Assembly: GCA_964436385.1 (NCBI GenBank)
Contig: CAYTCO010000003.1
Span: 5,342 to 69,341, forward strand
Reading direction: 5' to 3'
Length of the DNA stretch: 64,000 nucleotides
Source: an uncultured Gammaproteobacteria bacterium
GTDB lineage: Bacteria > Patescibacteriota > Microgenomatia > Levybacterales > GWA1-39-11
In this document: positions 2,302 through 20,234 of the stretch, piece by piece
Position numbering within the stretch: position 1 is the stretch's first letter
Layout of the letters: every line of letters starts with the position of its first letter
Translations under genes and position numbers: made by a program
Notes under the pieces: generated by a model
The model's input: the letters and a program-made list of their open reading frames with translations, nothing else
Database searches by the model: none
Told to the model about the DNA's origin: nothing

Positions 2302-3626
2302 GTAGAAAATATATCATTTCAGGGGGCGCAATGTTAAACGGAACCATTAGAATATCCGGGTCTAAAAACGTGGTTACGAAGGCAGTGATCGCAGCCTGCT
2401 TAACTAATGAACCAGTTACGCTTAAAAATGTTTCTGAGATATCTGACAATCAGGCGCTTTTAGAAATAATTGAGTCAATTGGAGGAACTGTTGAGCGGGG
2501 AGATGGCCAGGTTACGATAACTGTAGGTGACATAACAAATCATGAACTGTCTCTAGAAGAGGGTGCAAGGGTAAGAACCTCATCGATGTTTTTAGCGCCA
2601 TTGCTTTTACGTGTTAAGAAGGCAATTGTTCCAAATCCGGAAGGTTGTAGATTGGGTGCCCGTTCTATAGAAAGACATATCGAGGGACTCGAGATGATGG
2701 GGGCAAAAATAGAGTACAGGTCGGAGGACGGTTATTACCATGCATCAACTGAGGGTTTAGTTGGTACAACTTATCGTTTTGACAAGAACACTCATACCGG
2801 TACAGAGACTCTTATCATGGCAGCAACCCTAGCAAAAGGCACTACAACTATTGAAAATGCCGCTGAAGAGCACGAGATTGATGATTTAATCAAGCTCTTA
2901 AATAGCATGGGAGCAAAGATTCAAAGAGTTGAAAATCGAAAAATTGTAATCGAAGGTGTTGAAAAATTACATGGTACGACGTATGAGATAGTTTCAGACG
3001 CAAATGAATTTGTGACTTTTGCAATACTCTCAGTTCTTTCCGGTGGAAATATCACACTAACAAATGCCCCCCTTGATAATGTCGGTATTTTCCTTGAAGA
3101 ACTTAAAAAATGCGGCGTTGATTTTGAAAAGAAAGATGATGGTATTAGGTTCTTTGCACCTGATGGGATAAAACCTTCTGACGTCGTAACTGCATGTGAG
3201 CCTGGATTTAAAACCGACTGGCAGGGTCCCTGGGCTATTCTTATGACGCAGGCAGAAGGTGTGTCGACAATACATGAATCAATTTATGAGAACAGATTTG
3301 GTTATGTACCGGAACTTAAGAAAATGGGTGCAAAGATAGAGTCTTACGATCCGCAAGTGGATAATCCTAAGGACTTTTACAATTTCAATTACGACCCAAA
3401 TTCTAGTTATAGGCAGGCAATAAGAATTACCGGCCCTCAAAAACTTCATAATGCAATCCTTAAGATAACTGACCTTAGGGCAGGTGCAACACTCGTAATA
3501 GGGGCATTGCTTGCAGATGGGGAAAGTGTACTATTTGGAATAGAGCATATTGAACGAGGTTATGAGAAACTATTACGTCGTCTTCAGGATGTTGGCGCTA
3601 AAATGGAAGAAGCAGAGGAGGATTAA
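2298..3626 (+). CDS. murA: UDP-N-acetylglucosamine 1-carboxyvinyltransferase
   Basis: GTIRISGSKNVVTKAVIAACLT matches the MurA/EPSP-synthase-fold N-terminus. The protein is 442 aa and overlaps murC by 4 bp. Confidence 0.85.
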   Translation: MSRKYIISGGAMLNGTIRISGSKNVVTKAVIAACLTNEPVTLKNVSEISDNQALLEIIESIGGTVERGDGQVTITVGDITNHELSLEEGARVRTSSMFLAPLLLRVKKAIVPNPEGCRLGARSIERHIEGLEMMGAKIEYRSEDGYYHASTEGLVGTTYRFDKNTHTGTETLIMAATLAKGTTTIENAAEEHEIDDLIKLLNSMGAKIQRVENRKIVIEGVEKLHGTTYEIVSDANEFVTFAILSVLSGGNITLTNAPLDNVGIFLEELKKCGVDFEKKDDGIRFFAPDGIKPSDVVTACEPGFKTDWQGPWAILMTQAEGVSTIHESIYENRFGYVPELKKMGAKIESYDPQVDNPKDFYNFNYDPNSSYRQAIRITGPQKLHNAILKITDLRAGATLVIGALLADGESVLFGIEHIERGYEKLLRRLQDVGAKMEEAEED

Positions 3627-3627
3627 T

Positions 3628-4362
3628 TTGAATAATGTAACTGCAATTATATTAGCAGCTGGTCGTGGTACGCGTATGCAGTCTACGGACACGAATAAGG
3701 TTGCAATGAAAGTTCATGGTGAGCCCTTACTCTCAAGGTCTATTCGAATATTAAGAAGTAGTGGGATTTCAAGTATCGTTGTGGTTGTTGGTTTTGCAAA
3801 GGATTCAGTCATTGCGCTTCTTGATCAAGATATTCTGGTTGCAGAACAAAAAGAGCAACTTGGTACAGGGCATGCTGTGTCATGTGCGATTCCATTCGTT
3901 CCCGACACGAGTCATCATTTGTTAATCATGAATGGTGACGACTCATACCTTTATACACCCGAAATATTTCAGTCTTTTTATGACACTCATGTATCTAGAG
4001 GGGCTAAAATAACTCTTATAACAATGGATTCAGATAATCCTACAGGTTTTGGAAGAATTGTTAGAGACAAAAATCAGGAAATTGTCGGAATTGTTGAGGA
4101 AAAGAACGCAACCGATGAGCAAAAAGAAATTCAAGAAATAAATCTCGGATGTTACATAATCGACAAGAAATATTTAGAAGAGAATATAAAAGACATAAAG
4201 AAAAACGTAGTATCGGGCGAATTTTATATAACAGACATAATAGATATAATTTCTCACCATCATGGAAAAATTGCCGGATACAAACTTACACACGGTAGGT
4301 GGCAGGGTGTGAATACAAGGGAAGATTTAGAGGAAGCAGAAAATATTCTATCCAATGAATAA
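3628..4362 (+). CDS. Sugar-1-phosphate nucleotidyltransferase (GlmU N-terminal uridyltransferase-like)
   Basis: A TTG start at 3628 lies 7 nt after a GGAGGA RBS and gives MNNVTAIILAAGRGTRM, the canonical nucleotidyltransferase G-rich loop. The ORF track extends to 3550 but would then overlap murA. The protein is about 245 aa. Confidence 0.6.
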   Translation: MNNVTAIILAAGRGTRMQSTDTNKVAMKVHGEPLLSRSIRILRSSGISSIVVVVGFAKDSVIALLDQDILVAEQKEQLGTGHAVSCAIPFVPDTSHHLLIMNGDDSYLYTPEIFQSFYDTHVSRGAKITLITMDSDNPTGFGRIVRDKNQEIVGIVEEKNATDEQKEIQEINLGCYIIDKKYLEENIKDIKKNVVSGEFYITDIIDIISHHHGKIAGYKLTHGRWQGVNTREDLEEAENILSNE

Positions 4363-10348: not shown

Positions 10349-11515
10349 ATGTTAATTAAGCCTCAAACAGCAAGCTTCGCAAAAATAAGAGTCATGGGAA
10401 TAGGTGGAGGAGGCGGAAATGCTACCAATTCAATGATCCTAGATGGTCAAATTGAAGGGGTAGATTTTATAGCAGTCAACACGGATGCTCAAGCGCTTCT
10501 CAACTCTCAAGCACAATCAAAACTTCAGATAGGTGAAAATATTACTCGTGGACTTGGATCTGGTGGAAATCCTGATGTTGGTCGTGCAGCAGCTGAGGAG
10601 AGCGTTGAGAGAATAAAGCAGTACTTAGAGGGATCAGATATGGTTTTTCTAACCGCTGGAATGGGTGGAGGAACAGGAACCGGAGCCTCATCTGTTATTG
10701 CAAGAGTTGCAAAAGAGGTAGGTGCTCTAACCGTTGCTGTTGTTACAAAACCATTTAACTTTGAAGGAACACGAAGAATGGTTGCAGCGGAAGATGGAAT
10801 TGAGGAGTTGAAGGAATATGTAGACACACTTATTGTTGTACCAAATCAAAGAATTCTAGATAGTGTAGACAAAAAGTTATCACTTCTTGAGGCATTTAGA
10901 GTTGCGGATTCAGTCCTTGGACACGGTGTTAAGGGCATATCAGATCTTATTACACAAAGCGGATACGTTAATGTCGATTTTGCCGATGTTAAAGCCATAA
11001 TGAATGACGCAGGAACAGCTCTAATGGGACTTGGAGTTGGGGTTGGAGAGAACAGAGCACAAATCGCAGCAAGACAAGCTATTTCATCTCCTCTTCTTGA
11101 GGTGAGTATGGATGGGGCACGCGGAGTTTTATTTAATATTGCAGGTGGAGAAGATCTATCACTTCAAGAGGTTGAGGAAGCATCTAGAATTATTACCCAA
11201 GCAGCAGATCCGGATGCAAACATCATCTTTGGAGCAACTATAGACAAAGGCGCATTTGATTCTATAAGAATTACACTTATTGCAACAGGCTTTGATGAGT
11301 CAAGAAAAAGACTTCAGCAAATGGTCCAAAGTACGATGGAAGAACAGGGACAAGATTACGGAAACGCAAATATGCAGGACAATAACCCTCAACAGGATCC
11401 ATATGGAGGAGGAAACATCAGTAATCCAACATTTCAGGCTGAAGAACCATCCCGTCGGGATGACGACGAAGAATCAGTCTTTGATATCCCCGCATTTCTG
11501 AGACAGAAAAATTGA
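10349..11515 (+). CDS. ftsZ: Cell division GTPase FtsZ
   Basis: It has the tubulin signature [20 protein letters not shown], and an acidic C-terminal tail ending DIPAFLR. Confidence 0.9.
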
Positions 11516-11621
11516 CGTTTAGTTTTCATATTTCCTACATATTACCCCGTGATTAAGTGATTGACAAGAGTCCTAAACTATATCATCTTGGTTCATTTTT
11601 TGGTAGAATGAGGCAACATAA

Positions 11622-13334
11622 ATGCGATACCAAAAATTCACAGTAAATAATTTTAAAGCAATAAAAAATGCTGAAATTGACCTTACGCAAGAAGGTTTGG
11701 TGTTGCTACTTGGTCTTAACGAATCTGGAAAAACAAGCGTACTTCGAGCAATTGAGGCATTTGATTCATCTAATGACATTGAAGATGCTGATGCAAGGCT
11801 AAGATTTTATAAAGGGATTCGCAACAAGAAGGAAGTAGATTCAACAGCCTCTGTTACGGCACAGATTTTAATTGAAAAAAGCGACAAAGATAGCCTTGTT
11901 GTATTGCTTACGCCCCATATTACGCAAGGAATCAATCCGAAGGATTTACAAATTGATACTCTCCAGATTTGCCGTTTGTTCGAATATAAAAACGCTGAAT
12001 TTGTAAAAGACGACTATCAATTAATGGGAGGTTTAGAAAAGCAACTCACTCTTGCGAATAAGACAGTTGAGAGTAATTTATGTAAAGAAATACTAAAAAT
12101 TCTTCCTTCCATTCAGTATTTTGAGGATTTTAAAGACCAAATTCCCGATTTCATAAGCATAGAAGCTAGTACACAGTACTACGACCCCGATTGGGCTAGC
12201 ACTATCGAGGGAATGTTTTTTCATGCTGACCCGAAAATCACTGTTACTCAGTTTTCAAACCTCGTTGATAAAAATCCACGTCAAACCGTTCTCAATAAAG
12301 TTAATAAAGCCTTAAACAAACAATTTACTGAGAGGTGGAACAAAAAACTAAAGGGTACAAAATCTATTCATAAGGTTGAGCTTGTATATTTCCCAGAGAA
12401 AAAGCTATTTACTTTTGAAATTGTCGGGGCTGATGGCGTAACTGTATTCGCAATTGAGGAAAGAAGCAAAGGCGCATTGTGGTATTTAACATTTCTTCTT
12501 AAAACTGAATTTAGAAAAAGAAAATTGCGTGCCGAATCTGGTAAAACGCTGTATTTGATTGATGAGCCTGGCTCTAACCTTCATTCTTCAGCACAAACAA
12601 ATATGGTAGAGGATTTTAGAACACTCGCAAGTGATTCCAATGTAATCTATACAACCCATAGTCAATATCTTATTGATAAAGAAAATCTTTCAAATGTGTA
12701 CATAGTGCAGGCTGCAAAAGGAGTAGTAAAGGTAACAAAATACCAGCAATACTTACAAGGGAAGAATATTGAAACATCATATTACCAACCAATAATCGAT
12801 GCTCTAGAAATACAGCCATTTACGTTGGATGCTCCTTGGAAAAAAGTAGTGTTAGTTGAAGGAGTCTATGATTATTGCGGATTTAGATTTATGTTTGAGC
12901 AAGTTCTTAAAAAGAAACTTGATTTCGTTATTATGCCTGGTACAGGAGCGTCCACGCTTAAAACTCTCATATCGTTGCATGTTGGATGGGGAGCATCAAC
13001 CTTTGTTTTACTTGATAATGATGATGAGGGAAGAGCAAACAAAGCGAGTTATCAGGTTAAATTTCCGCATATTGAAAAATCAATGCACGTTTTGGATTTT
13101 ATAGGGGTGGCAGGAGATTGTGAGTTTGAACAGATTTTCACTGATAAAGAGCGTAAGGACTTGTCAGCATTGGCGGGCTTCTCAGGACCAGTTACAAAAA
13201 AAGTATTTCAACAAACTCTTGCGAGCATATCCACTTCTGCAACATTATCAAAAAAAGCTACAAAACTAATTTCTTCAGCAACAGAAAAAAGATTTAAGAC
13301 GATACTCTCCTTTATCGAAAAAACCCTCGCATAA
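11622..13334 (+). CDS. OLD-family ATP-dependent endonuclease (ABC-type ATPase + Toprim), class 1 (stand-alone)
   Basis: It has a Walker A (LLGLNESGKTS), Walker B/D-loop (LYLIDEPGSNLH), a C-terminal Toprim-like VVLVEGVYD and VLLDNDDEG, and is 570 aa. No UvrD-like partner gene is adjacent. Confidence 0.65.
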   Translation: MRYQKFTVNNFKAIKNAEIDLTQEGLVLLLGLNESGKTSVLRAIEAFDSSNDIEDADARLRFYKGIRNKKEVDSTASVTAQILIEKSDKDSLVVLLTPHITQGINPKDLQIDTLQICRLFEYKNAEFVKDDYQLMGGLEKQLTLANKTVESNLCKEILKILPSIQYFEDFKDQIPDFISIEASTQYYDPDWASTIEGMFFHADPKITVTQFSNLVDKNPRQTVLNKVNKALNKQFTERWNKKLKGTKSIHKVELVYFPEKKLFTFEIVGADGVTVFAIEERSKGALWYLTFLLKTEFRKRKLRAESGKTLYLIDEPGSNLHSSAQTNMVEDFRTLASDSNVIYTTHSQYLIDKENLSNVYIVQAAKGVVKVTKYQQYLQGKNIETSYYQPIIDALEIQPFTLDAPWKKVVLVEGVYDYCGFRFMFEQVLKKKLDFVIMPGTGASTLKTLISLHVGWGASTFVLLDNDDEGRANKASYQVKFPHIEKSMHVLDFIGVAGDCEFEQIFTDKERKDLSALAGFSGPVTKKVFQQTLASISTSATLSKKATKLISSATEKRFKTILSFIEKTLA

Positions 13335-13343
13335 ATATTACGC

Positions 13344-13380
13344 CATGTCGCATTTCCACTATTGTGCGACATGATTTTGA
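13344..13380 (+). terminator. Hairpin followed by ATTTT downstream of the OLD nuclease gene
   Basis: CATGTCGCA (13344-13352) pairs with TGCGACATG (13365-13373) across a 12-nt loop and is followed by ATTTTGA. It lies 10 bp after the stop codon. Confidence 0.4.
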
Positions 13381-13710
13381 GGCTGGAATATAGAGCTATT
13401 TTAGCGCCTGAGGCTGGACGTATTACTATAAGACATTTTTATAACTCCTTTTGATGGTTTTTCGTATCGTCTCTTCATGTGTGATTTACTGGCGGGCAGG
13501 CGGTACATGGTGGGTGTTTCGTTATTGGCACACTTTTGTTGGCAGTTATAACAAAGCACATCCCCAGCGTGGCCAAATGAGGGTTTAGGGTCCAGGGGTA
13601 GGCAGTTCAAGCCCGTGGTGCGTAGAAGATTTTTTAGAATAACCCCGAAGCTAGAATATACGGTATCTCCTTTCAGGCCAGCCGATTTTTTTTAGGAAAT
13701 TTCTTGTAAA

Positions 13711-13719
13711 TGCTATAAT
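13711..13719 (+). promoter_or_regulatory. Extended -10 element TGcTATAAT
   Basis: TGCTATAAT at 13711-13719 ends only 6 nt before the annotated GTG start at 13726. This implies either a leaderless or very short leader, or a different true start. Confidence 0.25.
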
Positions 13720-13725
13720 GCTCAT

Positions 13726-14091
13726 GTGTTTGGACAAGAGTTAATTAAAAAACTTCCCGAGGATATACAAAAACTTGGAGCAATCGGCACGGTTTCGTAC
13801 ATTGGTGCATTGCTTTGTATGGTTGCAGCTTTTTTAACTGATTTTAGTACAGGTAAGGGATGGGCACTTATTGTTGCAGGGGTTGCACTGCTTACACTAT
13901 CAGGAGCAATTTATCTTAAAGAAACACTTGCACGGACTGCAAACCGTAAAGAAGCACTTACTACATTGAGAGAGGTATACAACCGCCTTGCTGAACAAAG
14001 CACTAAAGGTACAAATGAGCAAACTGTGTCAATAACAATGACTATCGCCGAGCTTCCAAAACGAATATTAGAAGTGCTTCACAAATTATAA
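13726..14091 (+). CDS. Hypothetical membrane protein (2 predicted TM helices)
   Basis: It has a GTG start and hydrophobic stretches (IGTVSYIGALLCMVAAFL and WALIVAGVALLTLSGAIYL) followed by a charged C-terminal tail. No recognisable motif. Confidence 0.4.
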   Translation: MFGQELIKKLPEDIQKLGAIGTVSYIGALLCMVAAFLTDFSTGKGWALIVAGVALLTLSGAIYLKETLARTANRKEALTTLREVYNRLAEQSTKGTNEQTVSITMTIAELPKRILEVLHKL

Positions 14092-14120
14092 TAATTTTGC
14101 TTCTTACTGCAAATGACGGA

Positions 14121-14648
14121 CTACTTAAAAAATTGTTTGAAAAAATTAGCAATACCGTTATATATTGTAGAGAAAAAGTTACCTTGCTGTTGGGGCATGA
14201 TTTTCGGCTCATCATCATAATAATTTTCTTCGCTTGGTATAATTGAATTAGGCTTTAATGTAGGTTTGGGTTCTTCGGTGGGGGTATTTGTATAATAGGT
14301 GCGTTTGGGAGTAGATGCTGATGTAGGCGTAACAACAACCTCTTTAATAACTTCTATTACTTGAGGTACTGATGTGGGGGCTATTGGATTAGGCGCAGTA
14401 TTTTTGCTATCCCAATAACTTTTGCATCTTTGAGCATAATCATTCTTCAAAGATAAATATTTCTGATAGCAAGAATCAAGAATATCGTATGTACCACTAT
14501 ACGAGGTATAAACACAAGCTTTATTGCTCTCATATGGTGGTACGGGTGGTATTACGCACCCTTCTTGTGCCAAAATAGGTAGTGCAGAATTAGAAAATAA
14601 AAAGATGAATAAAAGTACAGTTATGACTTGCTTAATAAAATTTTTCAT
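14121..14648 (-). CDS. Secreted Cys-containing, Pro/Thr-rich protein of unknown function
   Basis: It has an N-terminal signal peptide (MKNFIKQVITVLLFIFLFSNSALPILAQEG), 4 Cys in the first 60 mature residues, and a PT-rich linker. Confidence 0.45.
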   Translation of the reverse strand: MKNFIKQVITVLLFIFLFSNSALPILAQEGCVIPPVPPYESNKACVYTSYSGTYDILDSCYQKYLSLKNDYAQRCKSYWDSKNTAPNPIAPTSVPQVIEVIKEVVVTPTSASTPKRTYYTNTPTEEPKPTLKPNSIIPSEENYYDDEPKIMPQQQGNFFSTIYNGIANFFKQFFK

Positions 14649-15294
14649 ACAACTTGCCTAGGTGTTTAGTAAAAAGTGCATACTCTTCTTCTGCCATCTT
14701 ACTGTTTTCGGTAATTCGCTCATTCAGTAATTCTATATCCTTGTTTAGTATCATAATTTCGTCAAGCATTTTTTCTGATTTTGCTGTTACATACCGTTCT
14801 TTCGAATATAGTTTATTTTTTTCTTCAAGCAGTTTTTGTTTTTCTTCATATTGTACCCATAATGGCTCGCTGTCTTCCCAGTATTCCCAATACGGGCTGG
14901 CATAAAACTTTTTATATGTACTTATGTAATCGTTCTTTTTTTCGTATTCAGTCCCCGCAGTGTAATTAAATGTCATTTCGATTAAAGACCTAGGAGGTTC
15001 CAATGCCTCAAGTTCGCTTATCTTTTCCTTTAAAGCTGCTTTTGCTTTTGTTACTGTATTTCTTTTCTCCAGGTTAATCAGTTTAATCGCATCATACCCC
15101 TCATCTTTTGTAAGGTTATAAAATTTTGCATTAAAATTACCGTTGGTTATAGGAAAAGTAATAATCACAAGGAATACGAATAAACCAATTACGAGTAAAG
15201 CTATCTTTATGAAAAGTCTATAGCTTTTTATTTTTTTGTATATTTTGGTAAAAAACTTAATCATATAACGACTGCTCATGCTTCCTATAACCAT
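14632..15294 (-). CDS. N-terminally membrane-anchored coiled-coil protein of unknown function
   Basis: It has one TM helix (LFIKIALLVIGLFVFLVIITFPI) followed by heptad-like E/K-rich sequence. It overlaps the downstream secreted-protein gene by 17 bp. Confidence 0.45.
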   Translation of the reverse strand: MVIGSMSSRYMIKFFTKIYKKIKSYRLFIKIALLVIGLFVFLVIITFPITNGNFNAKFYNLTKDEGYDAIKLINLEKRNTVTKAKAALKEKISELEALEPPRSLIEMTFNYTAGTEYEKKNDYISTYKKFYASPYWEYWEDSEPLWVQYEEKQKLLEEKNKLYSKERYVTAKSEKMLDEIMILNKDIELLNERITENSKMAEEEYALFTKHLGKLYEKFY

Positions 15295-15391
15295 ACTGTA
15301 TGCATTATCTCATAAATACGCAATACTAATGCGGTTTCGGTGTACGAATATCTAAAATACCATTGTGATAATTTGGTAAGAATATACGACT

Positions 15392-15574
15392 CTAGCTTCT
15401 ATTTTGGTCAATGATTTTTTTTGATTTCATTTCTTCTGCCTTTTGCTTTCCCCTATTTTTTGCCATCTCAAGTAACTTTAGTCTATCCTTTTCTTGAAGA
15501 GTTTTCATCATCTTCTCGTAAATTTGCTCAGCCGTCATTTTTCTTGGATTAAATATGCCAATCAGTTTTTTCAT
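15392..15574 (-). CDS. Small basic (Lys-rich) hypothetical protein
   Basis: The ORF is 60 aa, and its start overlaps the stop of the FtsK-gamma gene by 1 nt, suggesting translational coupling. Confidence 0.3.
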   Translation of the reverse strand: MKKLIGIFNPRKMTAEQIYEKMMKTLQEKDRLKLLEMAKNRGKQKAEEMKSKKIIDQNRS

Positions 15575-15786
15575 TAATTAAGGAATTTATGTTTTATAAC
15601 TTTTATCTTAGTAGACTCTCCCGTTTCGACATAACCCATTTCCTCTAATTTTTTGATTACTTTCTGTGCTCCTAGATAGCCTATTTGAAGCTTCCTTGAG
15701 ATAAATGGCCAAGAAATATAGTCCTCTTTAATAACTATTTCAACGGCACGGTCAATTTGAGTACCATTCTTTCCTTTTCTGCCCAT
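15574..15786 (-). CDS. Stand-alone FtsK/SpoIIIE gamma-domain (winged-helix) protein
   Basis: RAVEIVIKEDYISWPFISRKLQIGYLGAQKVIKKLEEMGYVE matches the FtsK gamma-domain pattern A.E.V...xxxS.S.LQR.LRIGYNRAARLID.LE..G.V. The protein is 70 aa. Confidence 0.55.
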   Translation of the reverse strand: MGRKGKNGTQIDRAVEIVIKEDYISWPFISRKLQIGYLGAQKVIKKLEEMGYVETGESTKIKVIKHKFLN

Positions 15787-15788
15787 AC

Positions 15789-16154
15789 TTAACGATTAGC
15801 CGACACTTCATCTATAATCTTCTTCATGTCTTGATTCATCGATTCAATTTGCAAGTCAGCGTTTTTTCTTTTCACATTGAATTCGTCTAGCTTCCGTGCC
15901 TCTTCTTCAAAATTGCATGTGCTGAGATGAGTAGCACACGCTGTTGCTGTATTGTAGGCTTCAGAGCACGATTCTGCGAGGTTCTGTGATGCTTCCATGC
16001 TACCAATAGCGTTCGATAGAATCCTTGCGGTCAGCTTCTCACTTGAACTTAATTCTGCCCTGGTGTAGATAAATACCACTAAAGCACCTATGAACAAGCA
16101 GGCCATTCCAATTAGTAGTTCTTTTTTAGACAGAATCTGAATTTTCTTTTTCAT
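15789..16154 (-). CDS. Hypothetical single-pass membrane protein with a Cys-containing soluble domain
   Basis: It has one TM helix (LLIGMACLFIGALVVFIY), then an approximately 85-aa domain containing CSEAYNTATACATHLSTC. Confidence 0.4.
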   Translation of the reverse strand: MKKKIQILSKKELLIGMACLFIGALVVFIYTRAELSSSEKLTARILSNAIGSMEASQNLAESCSEAYNTATACATHLSTCNFEEEARKLDEFNVKRKNADLQIESMNQDMKKIIDEVSANR

Positions 16155-16488
16155 GCTGTTTTATATGCCCATCAACCTCATCCGATATTCTTTTATCCTT
16201 CTCCCTTCTTTTTTTAGCATCATCCTCTAGGGCTGAATAATGCATCCTATCATATTTGTCATAAACCATTTCCTGACCAGCAAGAAAACCCGTAATTGAA
16301 AATATGATTATAACCGTAAAGACCGAGAAAAAATCCGACTTACCCAGTGCAAAATAAACGAAAACTAATCCCCCAAAAAACAGAACTCCAACTACAAATT
16401 TTGTGTGCTTATACCCTCTCATATTATAAATAAGCTCAAGAACATCATAACTCCGACTAACTTTTATTTCAATAGGAATTAAGGCCAA
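16126..16488 (-). CDS. Hypothetical membrane protein (2 TM) with a charged C-terminal tail
   Basis: It is the first gene of a minus-strand operon that diverges from the XRE gene. It has two hydrophobic helices followed by a K/E/D-rich tail. Confidence 0.4.
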   Translation of the reverse strand: MALIPIEIKVSRSYDVLELIYNMRGYKHTKFVVGVLFFGGLVFVYFALGKSDFFSVFTVIIIFSITGFLAGQEMVYDKYDRMHYSALEDDAKKRREKDKRISDEVDGHIKQHEKENSDSV

Positions 16489-16500
16489 ATGCTCGCTCTA

Positions 16501-16520
16501 GGCTAGTGGAGTCTCTAGCC
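16501..16520. promoter_or_regulatory. Short inverted repeat GGCTAG-N8-CTAGCC in the divergent promoter region
   Basis: It lies in the 53-bp gap between the minus-strand operon start (16488) and the XRE regulator start (16542). It is a candidate operator. Confidence 0.25.
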
Positions 16521-16541
16521 AATAGCTATCAAAATTAGGAC

Positions 16542-16760
16542 ATGGGTAAAACACCAAAGATTTACGAGAAGCTAGGAAGAAAGATTCAGAAGGCCAGAAA
16601 AGAAAAAGGTATAACCCAGGAGAGATTAGCCGAGCTTTCAGATATATCGAGAACTCATATGGGGCATATTGAGCAGGGAAGAAGACAACCTACTCTGGAT
16701 GTTATACAGAAAATTGCAAAAGCATTGAAAATGAAAGCAAACGAACTAATCCCCTTCTAA
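16542..16760 (+). CDS. XRE-family (Cro/CI-type) helix-turn-helix transcriptional regulator
   Basis: ITQERLAELSDISRTHMGHIEQGRRQPTLDVIQKIAKALKMKANEL is the classic HTH_3 pattern. The protein is 72 aa and is divergent from the membrane-protein operon. Confidence 0.8.
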   Translation: MGKTPKIYEKLGRKIQKARKEKGITQERLAELSDISRTHMGHIEQGRRQPTLDVIQKIAKALKMKANELIPF

Positions 16761-17116
16761 TACTATAAGTCTAGTAATTGTTAAGATAGTGTTAGGTGTG
16801 ATTTTAAGCTTTATTTATGCCTGATTACGCTTAAAAATAAATCAACTTTTCCTACGTATTATAAGTCATTTATCTATACCAACGGAGTGTTTTAAGGATG
16901 ATATTTTGAAATCGTCCTTGACAAATACAGTTTTAGTCGGATAGGGTAAATATTAATCCAGGTTGAGAACTGGCATTGTAAAGGGCTAAGTCTGACACGC
17001 AATGTTAAACAAAGATGGGTCAGAGGGAGTAAAGGTAAGAGTATATAGGTCAGCAAGCATACAATCTCACAGTGTGCAGAGATGAGGCACGGGGTTGTAC
17101 TTCAAGAGGGAGCAGA

Positions 17117-17166
17117 GGTCATATATGACCCAATGGCTTGGAGTTTTACAAACACTTACAAACACT
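17117..17166. repeat. 14-bp perfect palindrome GGTCATATATGACC followed by a tandem 2 x TACAAACACT
   Basis: The palindrome is at 17117-17130 and the tandem 10-mers at 17147-17156 and 17157-17166. They lie inside a 568-bp non-coding gap (16761-17328) next to the integrase gene. Confidence 0.4.
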
Positions 17167-17328
17167 CACGAAATAATGAGTCAATTTGCACTAACTCTAA
17201 TGGGGGGAAGGGGGGAGGTTTGCTCCGCAAACAAAGATAGAAAAAAAGCCATTTTTAATTCTATTAAAAAATGCTTAAGAAAGAAAAAAAGTAATAAAGT
17301 AATTTTAAACTTAAAGCTACTTAAAACT

Positions 17329-18396
17329 TTAAATAATAGGGAGAGTTGCGCTTTCAAGTGATTCTTCGGGAGCAAGTGATAATAAAATATTGTATGAATT
17401 ATTGTCTCCATTGATTTTAAAATTAAATCTACTATCTGCTCCAAACTTAAACTTATTTAAAAGCTCCATGAATTCATCTATTCTATCTTGTGGATTTTCA
17501 TACTTTCTTAGCAACGGATGTTTTCTGACTGCTTTTTGAAGTGTTGTATCTGCTAAATGTATATACGTTTCGTATGTTACCCGTATGTCTTTGTGTCCCA
17601 AGAGTTTTGCAACAATTGTTATATCAATTCCAGATTGAAGCAAGTGTGTTGCGAATGTGTGACGAAGAATGTGTGCATGTAGTCTCTCAAATTTACTTAT
17701 TCCAGCAAGTTTTCCTCTTAATCTAAGATTTTCATTAAATGTTCCTGGCAATATTTTATTTCCTGTGCTTCCAGTAAAGATAAGTTCCTCAGAATCTCTC
17801 TCTTGGATAAGCCCCCTTAGAGAATTTTTTAATTTATCGCCATCAAAGTAAACATTTCTATTATCTCCATTTTTAGTTTGCACCAAATAAGCTTTACCGT
17901 TTTCAATATCAAGCCTTTTTATTTGAAGTGAAGCAGCTTCATCAAACCTACAGCCAGTTATGGCCAAAAATTCAGTTAGAGTTAGATATTTGTCATCAAG
18001 GCTACTGTTATTCTTTCCATTCCTGTTTTTGTATTCCACTTTAGTGGACAATAAGCTTACTAGCTCGTCTTCTGAGAGAATCGTTATATCTGGATGTGTT
18101 TTGGGTAGATTCTTTGTGCCTTCAGTGAATCCGAACGGTAGTTTATGATATTTGCAATATTTATCTATCAATAGGAACACATTCCGATATGTGTTTACAG
18201 TGGAGTTACTACGCTTGAGCGTATACTTCTGCGCGTACAAGAAGTTAATAACGTTCTCGTTGGTCAACTCAAGATTATTTTCCTCAAGCCAAGCCGTTAT
18301 TATTCTAAAACGGTTACGATATGTACGGATTGTATTACCGACAATTCCTTGATTAATTGTCAGAAACTTTATGAACTCTTCTTCTTTGATTTTCAT
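17329..18396 (-). CDS. Tyrosine recombinase/integrase, Xer-like
   Basis: The C-terminal HILRHTFATHLLQSGIDITIVAKLLGHKDIRVTYETYIHL closely matches the XerC/XerD box II/III (R..H..LLGH...Y). The protein is 355 aa with an N-terminal SAM-like core-binding region. Confidence 0.85.
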   Translation of the reverse strand: MKIKEEEFIKFLTINQGIVGNTIRTYRNRFRIITAWLEENNLELTNENVINFLYAQKYTLKRSNSTVNTYRNVFLLIDKYCKYHKLPFGFTEGTKNLPKTHPDITILSEDELVSLLSTKVEYKNRNGKNNSSLDDKYLTLTEFLAITGCRFDEAASLQIKRLDIENGKAYLVQTKNGDNRNVYFDGDKLKNSLRGLIQERDSEELIFTGSTGNKILPGTFNENLRLRGKLAGISKFERLHAHILRHTFATHLLQSGIDITIVAKLLGHKDIRVTYETYIHLADTTLQKAVRKHPLLRKYENPQDRIDEFMELLNKFKFGADSRFNFKINGDNNSYNILLSLAPEESLESATLPII

Positions 18397-18801
18397 GCTT
18401 ACTGATTTGATTCAATAAGCAAGGGCTGAAAAATTTACAATTCTTTTTAAGTAGGGGAAGTATCTACAAGAGAATCGTAATTAACATAATTATATCAAAT
18501 TTGAGGCTAAAAATCAATCCCCAAAATATTTTATACTTGACTTGCCTCAAAAATTGCCCTGCTTTTTGAATGCAAATTGGAGAAGTAATTAATTTTTGAT
18601 GTATAATATTTGTGTATTTCTGAGTCGGAAAAGTAATTAGTATATGAGGCTAGTATCTTTCTTGGTTCATGAGTCCCCGCTTTTTTACGTCAGAAAAATT
18701 AAAAAGCCGAGGCTCGACCGAACGGGCGGCCCCGCAGTTCTACGACAAAAGAACTAAACATCTTGACAACTAGACTTAATTTGTTATAACATTGTTATAT
18801 T

Positions 18802-19017
18802 ATGGTACAGCAATTAATCTCTATAGGTAATTCTGTTGGGGTAATCATTCCAAAAAATGTGCTTAAAGAGAAGAATATAAAATTGGGTGATACGGTTGAA
18901 TTTGACATCAAGTCTGTTAAGCCAAAAACTACAGATGTAGATGTTCGTTTCATGAAGATGGTTGACGAGTTTGTTGAAGACCACAAAGATGTTCTTCAAA
19001 AACTCGCAACTCGATGA
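18802..19017 (+). CDS. AbrB/MazE/SpoVT-fold antitoxin (Phd-like partner of Doc)
   Basis: ISIGNSVGVIIPKNVLKEKNIKLGDTVEF is the swapped-hairpin AbrB-type motif. The protein is 71 aa and overlaps the Doc gene by 4 bp. A promoter-like TTGACA-N17-TATAAC lies upstream, around 18763. Confidence 0.65.
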   Translation: MVQQLISIGNSVGVIIPKNVLKEKNIKLGDTVEFDIKSVKPKTTDVDVRFMKMVDEFVEDHKDVLQKLATR

Positions 19018-19403
19018 AATACTTATCTACCCCTCAAGTTTTGGCGATTCACGATCAAATGGTAAAAAGATTTGGTGGCTCAATGGGCATTAGAGATTTA
19101 GACCTGATTGAATCTGCCGTTGAAAGACCAAAAACAACTTTTGATGGAGCTGATTTGTATTCCACAATCTTTACAAAGGCAGCTGTATTTATGCACTCTT
19201 TGTTGAAAAATCATGCGTTTGTTGACGGAAATAAGAGAACATCTTATGCTTCCTGTGGTATCTTCCTGAAACTAAATGGCTACGAGCTAGAAAATATGCA
19301 TAATGCAAGCTTGGAATTTACCATGAAGGTCGAAAATGATTCCATTAAGATTGGGGAAATCTCTGAATGGCTTGATAAACATTCAGTTAGACTACCTAAG
19401 TAG
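19014..19403 (+). CDS. Doc/Fic-family toxin (death-on-curing)
   Basis: It has the Fic/Doc motif HAFVDGNKRT (HxFx(D/E)GNKR). The protein is 129 aa. Confidence 0.75.
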   Translation: MKYLSTPQVLAIHDQMVKRFGGSMGIRDLDLIESAVERPKTTFDGADLYSTIFTKAAVFMHSLLKNHAFVDGNKRTSYASCGIFLKLNGYELENMHNASLEFTMKVENDSIKIGEISEWLDKHSVRLPK

Positions 19404-19466
19404 AGGCAGTCTTTACGCGTAGGAAAATTTGCTTGAAACTCAGGAGTATGTTTATTTCCTAGTAAT

Positions 19467-20234
19467 ATGAAATTGATGTCTTACAACATTTTGGATGGGG
19501 CGGTTAATACTTTGTCCCAGATTATTGATGTTGTAAATTCAGAAGCCCCTGATTATCTGACACTTAATGAAGCAAATACTTTTGCAAATGACAATAGTAA
19601 AATTCTTAAAGAATTTGCTCATGCCACTGGCTTTCCTTATTTTGAAATAGCACTTTCTGGTGAGATGGATTATAACGTTGCTGTTTTTTCAAAATACCCA
19701 TTCATTAAAATTGATAAACTTCAGCCCTTAGCAAGAGCATGCATTGTCGCCAAGATAGAGTCCCCAATTGGCATAATTTCTATTGCAAGTCTTCATTTAA
19801 CTCCGTATTCTGAAGACCTCAGACATCCTGAGATAGATAAAATCCTTGAGTTCCAAAAAAGTGAAGAAAATAGAATTTTGATGGGGGATATGAACTCACT
19901 TTCTAAAAATGACAATTATAATGTTGAGATTGTTAAGAATTTTAACGTTAAGCAGACTAAGAAATTCACAACCGATGGAGTTCTTCGATTTGACGCAATT
20001 GACAAGATCATGTCCGTAGGATACTTTGATTCTGCATTCGAGCTGGGTGAAAATCATGAAACCACAGTACCTACAAAATCAAACCAGGATCCGGCGCACA
20101 AATTCATGAGGCTTGATTATATTTTTGTATCAAAGCCATTAGTTAAAAAACTTAAGTCCTATGATGTTGTAAAAAATGGGCTAACAGATATTGCCTCCGA
20201 CCACTACCCAATAACTCTAAACCTCAATGCTTGA
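19467..20234 (+). CDS. Endonuclease/exonuclease/phosphatase (EEP) family protein
   Basis: The N-terminal MKLMSYNIL and C-terminal SDHYPITLNL are EEP signatures. Confidence 0.6.
   Translation: MKLMSYNILDGAVNTLSQIIDVVNSEAPDYLTLNEANTFANDNSKILKEFAHATGFPYFEIALSGEMDYNVAVFSKYPFIKIDKLQPLARACIVAKIESPIGIISIASLHLTPYSEDLRHPEIDKILEFQKSEENRILMGDMNSLSKNDNYNVEIVKNFNVKQTKKFTTDGVLRFDAIDKIMSVGYFDSAFELGENHETTVPTKSNQDPAHKFMRLDYIFVSKPLVKKLKSYDVVKNGLTDIASDHYPITLNLNA

What the first reader, a model, noticed from the sequence alone, without database searches (positions are those of the whole stretch)
11586..18670. Approximately 7.1-kb integrative element inserted directly downstream of ftsZ, flanked by 11-bp direct repeats
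The dcw cluster ends at ftsZ (11515). An unrelated gene set follows, and an exact 11-mer TCTTGGTTCAT occurs at both ends (11586-11596 and 18660-18670). Chance occurrence of an 11-mer pair in these short flanks is roughly 1e-2. The repeats bracket precisely the set OLD nuclease, membrane-protein operon, FtsK-gamma, XRE and Xer-like recombinase, with the recombinase at one edge as is typical. No tRNA/tmRNA target is visible, so the element appears to use a short non-tRNA att core next to an essential division gene.
Basis: partly seen in the sequence, partly recalled or inferred. Interest (0 to 1): 0.7.

Follow-up and report, generated by a model that had tools for sequence, protein, structure and literature searches.

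The report
Mobile island inserted into ftsZ tail
A 7.2-kb mobile DNA island carrying an anti-phage nuclease sits inside the last codons of the essential cell-division gene ftsZ of a Levybacteria (CPR) bacterium and supplies a synonymous replacement tail; a whole integrase family in these bacteria targets this same spot.

Summary
The exact 11-mer TCTTGGTTCAT is at both stated positions, and the gene set is as described: OLD nuclease, small membrane proteins, FtsK-gamma, XRE and a tyrosine integrase. The 11-mer is not the attachment site.

- **Empty sites.** Five contigs from ~95-98% identical relatives have no insertion. They place both junctions at a 7-bp core, TCCCCGC (11487-11493 and 18674-18680), inside the last codons of ftsZ.
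- **Restored gene.** The 7,187-bp element supplies new codons for AFLRQKN-stop. The native end is displaced to 18681-18702 and still reads the same peptide.
- **Older relic.** A third copy lies at 18729-18757.
- **Second element.** An unrelated element in another strain with an identical FtsZ protein uses the same 7-bp junction.
- **Integrase family.** Of 63 metagenomic loci with related integrases, 49 of the 51 with enough flank carry an FtsZ C-terminal coding copy. None of 17 distant integrases does.
- **Cargo.** Cargo varies (OLD, CBASS, reverse transcriptase). One family member is a tailed prophage.

The mechanism is the classical one, as for e14/phage 21 in icd. The target and the host lineage appear to be new. 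No excised circular form was seen.

The parts
10349..11515 (+). ftsZ, 388 aa. It is recombinant: everything up to 11493 is host DNA and the last 22 nt are element DNA. The protein is identical to that of strains without the element.
   Evidence: ORF and translation. Tubulin and FtsZ_C domains, with identical protein in empty-site contigs. Alignment A1.
11487..11493 (+). attL crossover core TCCCCGC: the last two bases of the Ile codon, the Pro codon and the first two bases of the Ala codon.
   Evidence: This is the only block identical between attL, attR and the empty attB. Sequences diverge immediately on either side. The L002/L209 element has the same junction.
11494..11515 (+). Element-supplied replacement of the ftsZ 3' end (A TTT CTG AGA CAG AAA AAT TGA, reading AFLRQKN-stop). 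It differs from the native end at 6 synonymous positions, counted over the 27-nt copies including the stop codon.
11516..11621 (+). P' arm of the element plus the upstream region of the OLD gene. About the first 55 nt are conserved with the related element L198, including TTTAGTTTTCA at 11518-11528, the inverted partner of the P-arm motif. The left 11-mer copy at 11586-11596 lies here and is not conserved in L198.
   Evidence: Alignment A3. Family-wide motif. 11-mer position.
11622..13334 (+). OLD-family nuclease, 570 aa, with an ABC-type ATPase and a TOPRIM domain. This is the anti-phage defence cargo.
   Evidence: Pfam AAA_15 at 1.7e-21 and OLD-like_TOPRIM at 22.1 bits, just under its 23.2 cut-off. 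PADLOC AriA 1.4e-23, Old 3.5e-19 and GajA models.
13726..14091 (+). 121-aa predicted membrane protein of unknown function.
   Evidence: ORF. No Pfam, PHROG or PADLOC family.
14121..16488 (-). Leftward gene string: p120 (16126-16488), p121 (15789-16154), a 70-aa stand-alone FtsK_gamma winged-helix protein (15574-15786), p60 (15392-15574), p220 (14632-15294) and p175 (14121-14648). Most have hydrophobic or signal-like N-termini. Function is unknown.
   Evidence: ORFs. FtsK_gamma at 9.8e-11. No other family hits. p121 has a weak relative in element L126. The 90%-Int relative L201 has the same layout with an FtsK_gamma gene.
16542..16760 (+). XRE-type HTH regulator, 72 aa, transcribed divergently from the leftward gene string.
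   Evidence: HTH_3 at 1.7e-15. An XRE family protein recurs in 13 of 23 complete elements.
17329..18396 (-). Xer-like tyrosine integrase, 355 aa, catalytically intact.
   Evidence: Phage_integrase at 4.8e-32. R150, K175, H242, R245, H268 and Y278 are conserved in alignment A2. The nearest solved structures are XerD, XerA and XerH.
18397..18673 (+). P arm of the element. It contains an integrase promoter-like site on the minus strand (18517-18489), the family motif GAGGCTAG (18646-18653), and the core-adjacent site TTGGTTCATGAG (18662-18673), which is conserved in this sub-lineage and overlaps the right 11-mer copy (18660-18670).
   Evidence: alignment A4: T.GG.T.ATGAGT.CCCGC is invariant in four elements whose integrases are 60-100% identical.
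18674..18680 (+). attR crossover core TCCCCGC.
18681..18702 (+). Displaced native ftsZ 3' end. With the core it reads PAFLRQKN-stop in frame, and it is identical to the ftsZ end of empty-site strains.
18729..18757 (+). Older relic copy of the ftsZ 3' end (reads PAVLRQKN-stop). It is also present in empty-site strains and is polymorphic among them. It is a scar of an earlier event and not part of this element.

Best explanation
Positions 11494-18680 (7,187 bp) are an integrative genetic element, a small defence island, carried by a Levybacteria (Microgenomatia, CPR) chromosome.

Its own Xer-like tyrosine integrase recombined an element site (attP) with the 3' end of ftsZ (attB). Strand exchange fell within the 7-bp block TCCCCGC, which spans the Pro-Ala codons of the conserved FtsZ C-terminal peptide [10 protein letters not shown].

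attP carries its own synonymous copy of the remaining codons and a stop. Integration therefore cuts off the native end of the gene and in the same step rebuilds an ftsZ that encodes exactly the same protein. The native end is left as a silent copy at the far junction (attR).

Its right copy overlaps the conserved core-adjacent sequence, which is probably an integrase binding site. Its left copy lies in the other arm and is probably coincidental.

Shown: the junctions, the empty sites, gene restoration, an intact integrase, and family-wide site specificity. Inferred: that this integrase catalysed the event, that the 7-bp block is the overlap region, that the element can still excise, and that OLD provides phage defence.
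For: 1. Empty sites. Contigs L001, L003, L004 and L211 have ftsZ followed after 100 bp by the AbrB/Doc pair, and L001, L003 and L004 were retrieved by exact match to the window's FtsZ protein. Their flanks are 95-98% identical to the window. L001 7693-7719 aligns to both window 11487-11513 and window 18674-18700.

2. Repeat of the gene end. The last 27 nt of ftsZ recur at 18674-18700 (81% identical) and 18729-18755 (74%). All three copies read PA(F/V)LRQKN-stop in frame.

3. Second element. A different element in strains with the same FtsZ protein has both junctions at the same TCCCCGC (L002 left, L209/L212 right) and supplies its own synonymous tail.

4. Integrase. All catalytic residues are present.

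5. Forward test. Among 80 GTDB-representative ftsZ loci, 14 carry an extra in-frame PAFLR...stop copy downstream of ftsZ. Four carry an integrase 37-39% identical to the window's immediately after ftsZ (L005, L020, L030, L044). Two loci show both, giving 16 loci in all.

6. Reverse test. Of 63 metagenomic loci with family integrases, 45 have the FtsZ C-terminal coding copy within 800 bp of the integrase gene. Four more have it elsewhere in the locus, only 2 with adequate flanks lack it, and 12 are too short to judge. None of 17 distant integrases has it.

7. Selection on the tail. In 21 of 22 complete elements the attL and attR copies encode the identical 8-residue peptide, although they differ at 2-8 of 27 nt.

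8. Closer relatives. Elements whose integrases are 59-90% identical to the window's have the window's layout. The four tested (60-100% identity) share the core-adjacent sequence T.GG.T.ATGAGT.CCCGC.
Against: No excised circle or attP junction was found. Every contig carrying this element (L085-L089, from three sequencing runs) shows the integrated form. No terminally redundant contig was seen. The attP junction pattern is absent from IMG/VR. No excisionase was recognised in this element.

The 7-bp overlap is inferred from sequence identity blocks, not from mapped cleavage sites. In some family members the block shared by all copies shrinks to CCC(G/A)C.

The element could therefore be a recently fixed, no longer mobile island.
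Confidence: 0.9

Rival explanations
1. One reading: the element inserted in the intergenic spacer after ftsZ, and the 11-bp TCTTGGTTCAT is the duplicated att core.
For: The exact 11-mer pair lies in the two intergenic flanks, with a chance probability of about 0.018. A gapped extension raises the match to about 18 of 21 nt (read directly).
Against: Empty-site contigs and the L002 strain contain no copy of the 11-mer. The empty-site alignment puts the junctions 99 nt to the left and 14 nt to the right of the two 11-mer start positions. The sequence between the ftsZ stop and the left 11-mer is absent from empty sites. The left copy is not conserved in the related element L198. Repeating the core-adjacent site in the other arm is not a family feature.
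Confidence: 0.02
2. The island arrived by integrase-mediated insertion into the ftsZ tail as described, but is now a fixed, non-excising remnant (a 'grounded' island).
For: Only integrated forms were recovered in three runs. There is no attP junction and no recognisable excisionase. Many ftsZ loci in the family carry relic att copies and integrase-less cargo, for example L019, L022, L024 and L031, which shows that decay is common.
Against: The integrase is full length with all catalytic residues. attL and attR cores are intact and identical. Relatives about 95-98% identical in their flanks are empty or carry a different element at the same core, so turnover is recent.
Confidence: 0.3
3. The element is a miniature virus or phage satellite. 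On this view it exploits the tailed prophages that use the same integrase family and the same ftsZ site, and it is not a simple cargo island.
For: The IMG/VR contig L176 has the FtsZ tail coding copy (reading SEFDIPTFLRKK-stop), then a family integrase, then terminase, portal, protease and major head genes. The elements are small (4.5-9.4 kb) and share only an integrase, an XRE regulator and a small ribbon-helix-helix-like protein. One element (L134) encodes a filamentous-phage-type rolling-circle Rep. The window element has a string of small membrane proteins of unknown function.
Against: No capsid, packaging, replication or known satellite marker was detected in the window element by Pfam or PHROGs. 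Its membrane-protein genes are not shared with other family members, apart from one weak match. Recognisable cargo is mostly defence genes.
Confidence: 0.1

Closest known systems
e14 element and phage 21 integration into icd (isocitrate dehydrogenase) of E. coli
   Same: A tyrosine integrase inserts the element into the 3' part of a housekeeping protein gene. The element brings an alternative 3' end that keeps the gene functional. The displaced native end remains as a pseudo-fragment at the other junction (described in PMC6379469; the rest is my own knowledge of Hill et al. 1989).
   Different: The target is ftsZ, not icd. The duplicated block is about 27-29 nt (8 codons) against 163 bp for icd. 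The host is a CPR bacterium. The replaced peptide is the FtsZ C-terminal tail, which by general knowledge docks FtsA and other partners. It is kept identical at the amino-acid level in 21 of 22 elements.
Integrative genetic elements that restore their target gene through an attP-borne fragment, including tandem arrays (tRNA/tmRNA islands; TIGER/Islander survey, PMC7192596)
   Same: The general logic matches: site-specific integration into a conserved gene, restoration from an attP fragment, direct repeats at both ends, and tandem arrays or relic copies when several elements use one site. Arrays are seen here in L017, L098, L129 and L205.
   Different: ftsZ does not appear in that paper's text or in its held supplements. 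Here a single integrase clade is tied to this one protein-coding target across many Microgenomatia genera.
XerC/XerD-dif recombination activated by the FtsK gamma domain, and IMEX elements (such as CTX phage) that borrow it
   Same: The integrase's nearest solved relatives are XerD, XerA and XerH. The element encodes a stand-alone FtsK_gamma domain protein. By general knowledge, FtsK gamma is the activator of XerD.
   Different: The element has its own recombinase and does not borrow the host's. The site is the ftsZ coding end, not dif. The gamma-domain gene is seen only in the window element and its 90% relative L201, not across the family.
OLD-family nucleases (P2 Old, Gabija GajA, PARIS AriA/AriB)
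   Same: The cargo protein has the ATPase plus TOPRIM architecture and matches the AriA, Old and GajA models.
   Different: It is a single-gene form with no recognisable partner. It is only 26% identical to the OLD-like protein at the same position in the related element L198. No close solved structure exists.

Membership tests
Tyrosine recombinase / phage integrase (PF00589) | Catalytic R-K-H-R-H/W-Y set | tested here: met
   R150, K175, H242, R245, H268 (W in L002) and Y278 are conserved in alignment A2. PF00589 scores 4.8e-32.
Tyrosine recombinase / phage integrase (PF00589) | N-terminal SAM-like core-binding domain | tested here: inconclusive
   PF02899 scores 21.7 bits against a 22.3 cut-off for the window protein. 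Most homologues carry a precomputed PF02899 hit. The alignment to XerD covers residues 5-287.
Integrative genetic element with target-gene restoration (icd / tRNA type) | An uninterrupted attB exists in close relatives, and both junctions map to one point | tested here: met
   L001, L003, L004 and L211 are empty. Both flanks meet at TCCCCGC.
Integrative genetic element with target-gene restoration (icd / tRNA type) | Direct repeat made of a target-gene fragment at both ends, with the target reading frame restored | tested here: met
   A 27-nt repeat is present. FtsZ is 100% identical with and without the element. 21 of 22 family elements keep the peptide.
Integrative genetic element with target-gene restoration (icd / tRNA type) | Integrase gene next to one att site | tested here: met
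   The integrase 5' end is 278 nt from the attR core. In 45 of 63 family loci the integrase is within 800 bp of a tail copy.
Integrative genetic element with target-gene restoration (icd / tRNA type) | Excision to a circle carrying attP | tested here: not met
   No attP junction was found in contigs of three runs, in IMG/VR, or as terminal redundancy. Raw reads could not be searched, so absence is not shown.
IMEX (integrative element exploiting host XerCD at dif) | No recombinase of its own, and integration at dif | tested here: not met
   The element encodes its own integrase and the site lies within the ftsZ coding sequence.
OLD-family nuclease | N-terminal ABC-type ATPase plus C-terminal TOPRIM | tested here: met
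   AAA_15 covers residues 1-351 at 1.7e-21. OLD-like_TOPRIM covers 407-467 at 22.1 bits, marginal against the 23.2 cut-off. PADLOC Old scores 3.5e-19 over 300-527.
Tailed prophage (Caudoviricetes) | Terminase, portal and major capsid genes | tested here: not met
   None was found in the window element by PHROGs or Pfam. They are present in family member L176.
Integrative conjugative or mobilisable element | Relaxase, coupling protein or T4SS genes | tested here: not met
   No such Pfam family was found in any of the 10 element proteins. Six proteins remain unannotated, so a divergent system cannot be excluded.

The most novel reading that the evidence does not exclude
The element's 70-aa stand-alone FtsK-gamma protein may be the activator or directionality factor of its Xer-like integrase. 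It would mimic the way the FtsK gamma domain switches on XerD at dif, so the element would carry a private copy of the host's recombination trigger. More broadly, the FtsZ C-terminal peptide coding sequence may serve as a lineage-wide landing pad for defence islands and prophages in Microgenomatia. Its integrases could then be developed into site-specific integration tools for CPR bacteria.
Probability: 0.12. Interest if true: 0.7.

Novelty: new member of a known kind. Interest (0 to 1): 0.5.

Why it matters
Three points would matter if this holds.

1. It shows that the most conserved short stretch of an essential division gene can serve mobile elements the way tRNA genes do, as a stable and widely shared insertion target. 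The stretch encodes the FtsZ C-terminal peptide. Each element must carry a synonymous copy of that peptide, which places a direct, readable selective constraint on mobile DNA.

2. It defines a coherent integrase clade with a known attB in Microgenomatia/CPR. These organisms have few described mobile elements and almost no genetic tools. An integrase plus a roughly 30-bp site in a universal gene is a plausible basis for an integration vector.

3. The site is a hot spot that collects defence systems (OLD, CBASS, reverse transcriptase, methyltransferase). That makes the ftsZ downstream region a convenient place to mine CPR immunity genes.

Tried and rejected
- **The 11-mer as att.** Rejected on the empty sites.
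- **The 11-mer as a family-wide arm-type repeat.** For 23 complete elements I searched both arms for a second copy of the core-adjacent 11 nt. Arms gave 0.43 hits per kb and element interiors 0.28. The left copy is also not conserved in L198.
- **tRNA, tmRNA or Rfam target.** None was found.
- **Circular or excised form.**
  - Contigs whose two ends both carry tail copies (L095, L096, L099, L109) have no terminal overlap.
  - All Logan contigs of this element show the integrated form.
  - The attP pattern is absent from IMG/VR.
- **Composition.** GC content does not separate the element from the native downstream DNA.
- **Promoter and terminator scans.** Counts were at or below shuffle expectation.
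- **Folding of the att spacers.** Not better than shuffles.
- **Function of the six small leftward proteins and the 121-aa protein.** No Pfam, PHROG or PADLOC family was found. The only matches are faint ones to phrog_624, JetC and SLATT that I do not trust.
- **FtsK_gamma in other family elements.** None was found by phmmer.
- **Literature.** Four full-text searches and one supplement search found no report of ftsZ as an attB.

Full report
**1. The observation**

The exact 11-mer TCTTGGTTCAT is at 11586-11596 and 18660-18670. It occurs nowhere else in the window without a mismatch. ftsZ (10349-11515) closes a dcw cluster.

- an OLD-family ATPase-TOPRIM protein (11622-13334);
- a 121-aa membrane protein;
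- a leftward string of six small proteins, including a 70-aa FtsK_gamma domain protein (15574-15786);
- an XRE regulator (16542-16760);
- a tyrosine integrase (17329-18396, minus strand).

There is no tRNA or tmRNA gene and no Rfam match. An exact 11-mer shared by the two intergenic flanks arises in 1.8% of shuffles. However, 30 exact 11-mer pairs exist in 11000-19500, so the pair was selected after the fact.

**2. What the comparison with relatives shows**

A look-up of the window's exact FtsZ protein returned contigs from other samples. In L001, L003 and L004, ftsZ is followed after 100 bp by the AbrB/Doc pair that in the window starts at 18802. L211 is a further empty site, found through the AbrB look-up. 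These are empty sites.

Their flanks are 95-98% identical to the window. L001 7693-7719 aligns to both window 11487-11513 and window 18674-18700. The repeat finder independently reported this as the top direct repeat. The last 27 nt of ftsZ recur at 18674-18700 (81%) and at 18729-18755 (74%).

In alignment A1 the empty site reads GACAT(C/T)CCCGC-TTTTTTACGTCAGAAAAATTAA-AAAGCCGAGG…. That sequence is the window's right junction. The window's ftsZ instead ends ATCCCCGC-ATTTCTGAGACAGAAAAATTGA.

The only block common to attL, attR and attB is TCCCCGC (11487-11493 and 18674-18680). The element is therefore 7,187 bp long. It sits inside the ftsZ reading frame, and it supplies the last 22 nt of the gene. 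Both versions, and the third copy at 18729-18757, translate in frame to PA(F/V)LRQKN-stop.

The 11-mer is absent from all empty-site contigs. Both of its copies are element DNA.

**3. A second element at the same point**

L002 has the same FtsZ protein. It carries an unrelated element after CCCCGC, with its own synonymous tail (ATTTCTAAGACAGAAGAATTAG) and an integrase 39% identical to the window's.

Its right junction was recovered on L209 and L212: …ATATAAA-TCCCCGC-TTTTTTACGTCAG…. This is the same 7-bp crossover.

**4. A family phenomenon**

The organism is a Levybacteria/Levyibacteriota member. The best GTDB-representative FtsZ proteins are 66-72% identical.

*Forward test.* Among 80 representative ftsZ loci, 14 have extra in-frame PAFLR…stop copies downstream of ftsZ, at distances from about 50 bp to 7.8 kb. 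Four have a homologous integrase right after ftsZ (L005, L020, L030, L044). Two loci show both features, giving 16 loci in all.

*Reverse test.* I scanned metagenome contigs with an alignment of six integrases. This gave 63 loci with integrases at least about 37% identical to the window's.
- 45 have the FtsZ tail coding copy within 800 bp of the integrase gene.
- 4 more have it farther away in the locus.
- Only 2 with at least 500 bp of flank on both sides lack it.
- 12 are too short to judge.

None of 17 more distant integrases (25-35% identical) has it.

Twenty-three complete elements measure 4.5-9.4 kb. They share only the integrase (23 of 23), an XRE regulator (13 of 23) and a small ribbon-helix-helix-like protein next to the integrase gene (8 of 23).

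Cargo is otherwise unrelated and often defence-like:
- OLD (window, L107/L109, L198);
- CBASS CD-NTase plus SAVED (L204);
- reverse transcriptase (L005);
- a MORC-like ATPase (L019);
- a NOV_C nuclease (L044);
- DUF4238 (L095);
- a methyltransferase (L205).

In 21 of 22 elements, attL and attR encode the identical 8-residue tail although they differ at 2-8 of 27 nt, mean 4.9. This shows selection on the elements to reproduce the host peptide.

The same integrase family also serves a real tailed prophage. L176 reads FtsZ tail coding copy, integrase, small and large terminase, portal, protease, major head.

**5. Site anatomy**

The integrase keeps all catalytic residues. Its nearest solved relatives are XerD, XerA and XerH.

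Most family elements have an inverted motif around the ftsZ-like segment. GAAGCTAG lies about 22 nt left of the core, and TTTAGCTTCA lies just after the supplied stop. The window's versions are GAGGCTAG (18646-18653) and TTTAGTTTTCA (11518-11528).

In the window's sub-lineage the integrase sits at the attR end. Here the 12 nt left of the core, TTGGTTCATGAG, are nearly invariant in four elements whose integrases are 60-100% identical, while the DNA further out is not. The right copy of the 11-mer therefore overlaps a probable integrase binding site.

The left copy lies 71 nt after the stop, in the OLD upstream region. It is not conserved in the related element L198, although the first ~55 nt of that arm are. 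A second copy of the core-adjacent site in the other arm is also not a family feature. I regard the 11-mer pairing as coincidental or lineage-specific.

**6. Mechanism**

*Shown:* the junctions, the empty attB, the restored reading frame, the intact integrase and the family-wide specificity.

*Inferred:* the integrase binds sites flanking TCCCCGC in attP and attB and exchanges strands across this 7-bp overlap. Integration yields attL (host ftsZ plus the element tail) and attR (element arm plus the native tail). Excision would reverse this.

No excised form was detected. No excisionase is recognisable in this element. Current mobility therefore remains unproven.

The relic at 18729-18757 is also present in empty sites and is polymorphic among strains. 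With the arrays in L017, L098 and L129, it shows repeated use of the site.

**7. Comparison with known systems**

This is the classical strategy of e14 and phage 21 in icd (PMC6379469). It also matches integrative elements in general (PMC7192596).

I found no report of ftsZ as a target. It is not an IMEX, because it has its own recombinase and its site is not dif.

The stand-alone FtsK-gamma protein next to a Xer-like integrase is a lead for a possible activator. It is confined to the window element and its 90% relative L201.

**8. Verdict**

The element is a new member of a known kind. Its interest lies in the target, the coding sequence of the FtsZ C-terminal peptide, and in the size and specificity of the integrase family in CPR bacteria.

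Noticed in passing
window 18703-18757; L001 7722-7776; L003 10719-10773; L209 and L211: A relic third copy of the ftsZ tail lies 27 nt after the native stop, behind a GCCGAGGCTCGA spacer. It is also present in empty-site strains. It comes in three variants (GGCCCCGCAGTTCTACGAC, GGCCCCGCATTTCTACGAC, GTCCCCGCATTTCTAAGAC). The last variant resembles the tail supplied by the L002-type element. Similar 'GGCGAGGC + tail copy' scars follow ftsZ in distant genera (L010, L013, L039). Their origin is unexplained. Possibilities include an almost fully deleted element, a secondary attB, or gene conversion.
   Followed up: partly
window 16900-17240: A purine- and GC-rich non-coding stretch of about 340 nt lies between the XRE gene and the integrase 3' end, in an otherwise AT-rich element. 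It has no Rfam match. Folding z-scores are -1.35 on the plus strand and -2.2 on the minus strand. It could be an origin, a non-coding RNA or a decayed gene.
   Followed up: partly
window 15574-15786 (minus strand); L201 4593-4955: A stand-alone FtsK_gamma winged-helix protein is encoded in an element whose integrase is Xer-like. It is conserved in the 90%-identical relative L201 but absent from the other 22 complete elements examined.
   Followed up: partly
L176 1-11231 (IMGVR_UViG_3300031515_000003): A 27.5-kb tailed prophage begins with an FtsZ tail coding copy (reading SEFDIPTFLRKK-stop) and a family integrase that appears split into two ORFs. Terminase, portal, protease and major head genes follow. 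L173 and L174 show the same tail-then-integrase start.
   Followed up: partly
L204 3566-8178; L205 1355-8930: Other islands at the ftsZ tail carry a CBASS pair, CD-NTase plus SAVED effector (L204). L205 carries two divergent family integrases with an N6/N4 methyltransferase, which looks like a tandem array.
   Followed up: no
L017 11122-14094; L098 4093-11400; L129 7072-14754: Three or four tail copies occur in series downstream of one ftsZ. This indicates tandem or successive integrations with partial decay.
   Followed up: no
L134 element, 348-aa ORF at element coordinates 2774-3820: One family element encodes a Phage_CRI (filamentous-phage G2P-type) rolling-circle replication initiator, at 3.1e-17. 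Some of these small elements may therefore replicate autonomously.
   Followed up: no
window 18802-19403: The AbrB/MazE-like antitoxin and Doc/Fic toxin pair immediately right of attR is native chromosome, since it is present in all empty-site strains. It is not part of the element.
   Followed up: yes
L088 start (= window 11470): In run SRR12762304 the contig carrying the element starts 17 nt before the attL core, inside ftsZ. Several metagenome contigs (L095, L096, L099, L109) start and end about 100-200 nt outside the two att copies. This pattern fits assembly-graph branching caused by mixed occupied and empty populations. It is not proof of that.
   Followed up: no
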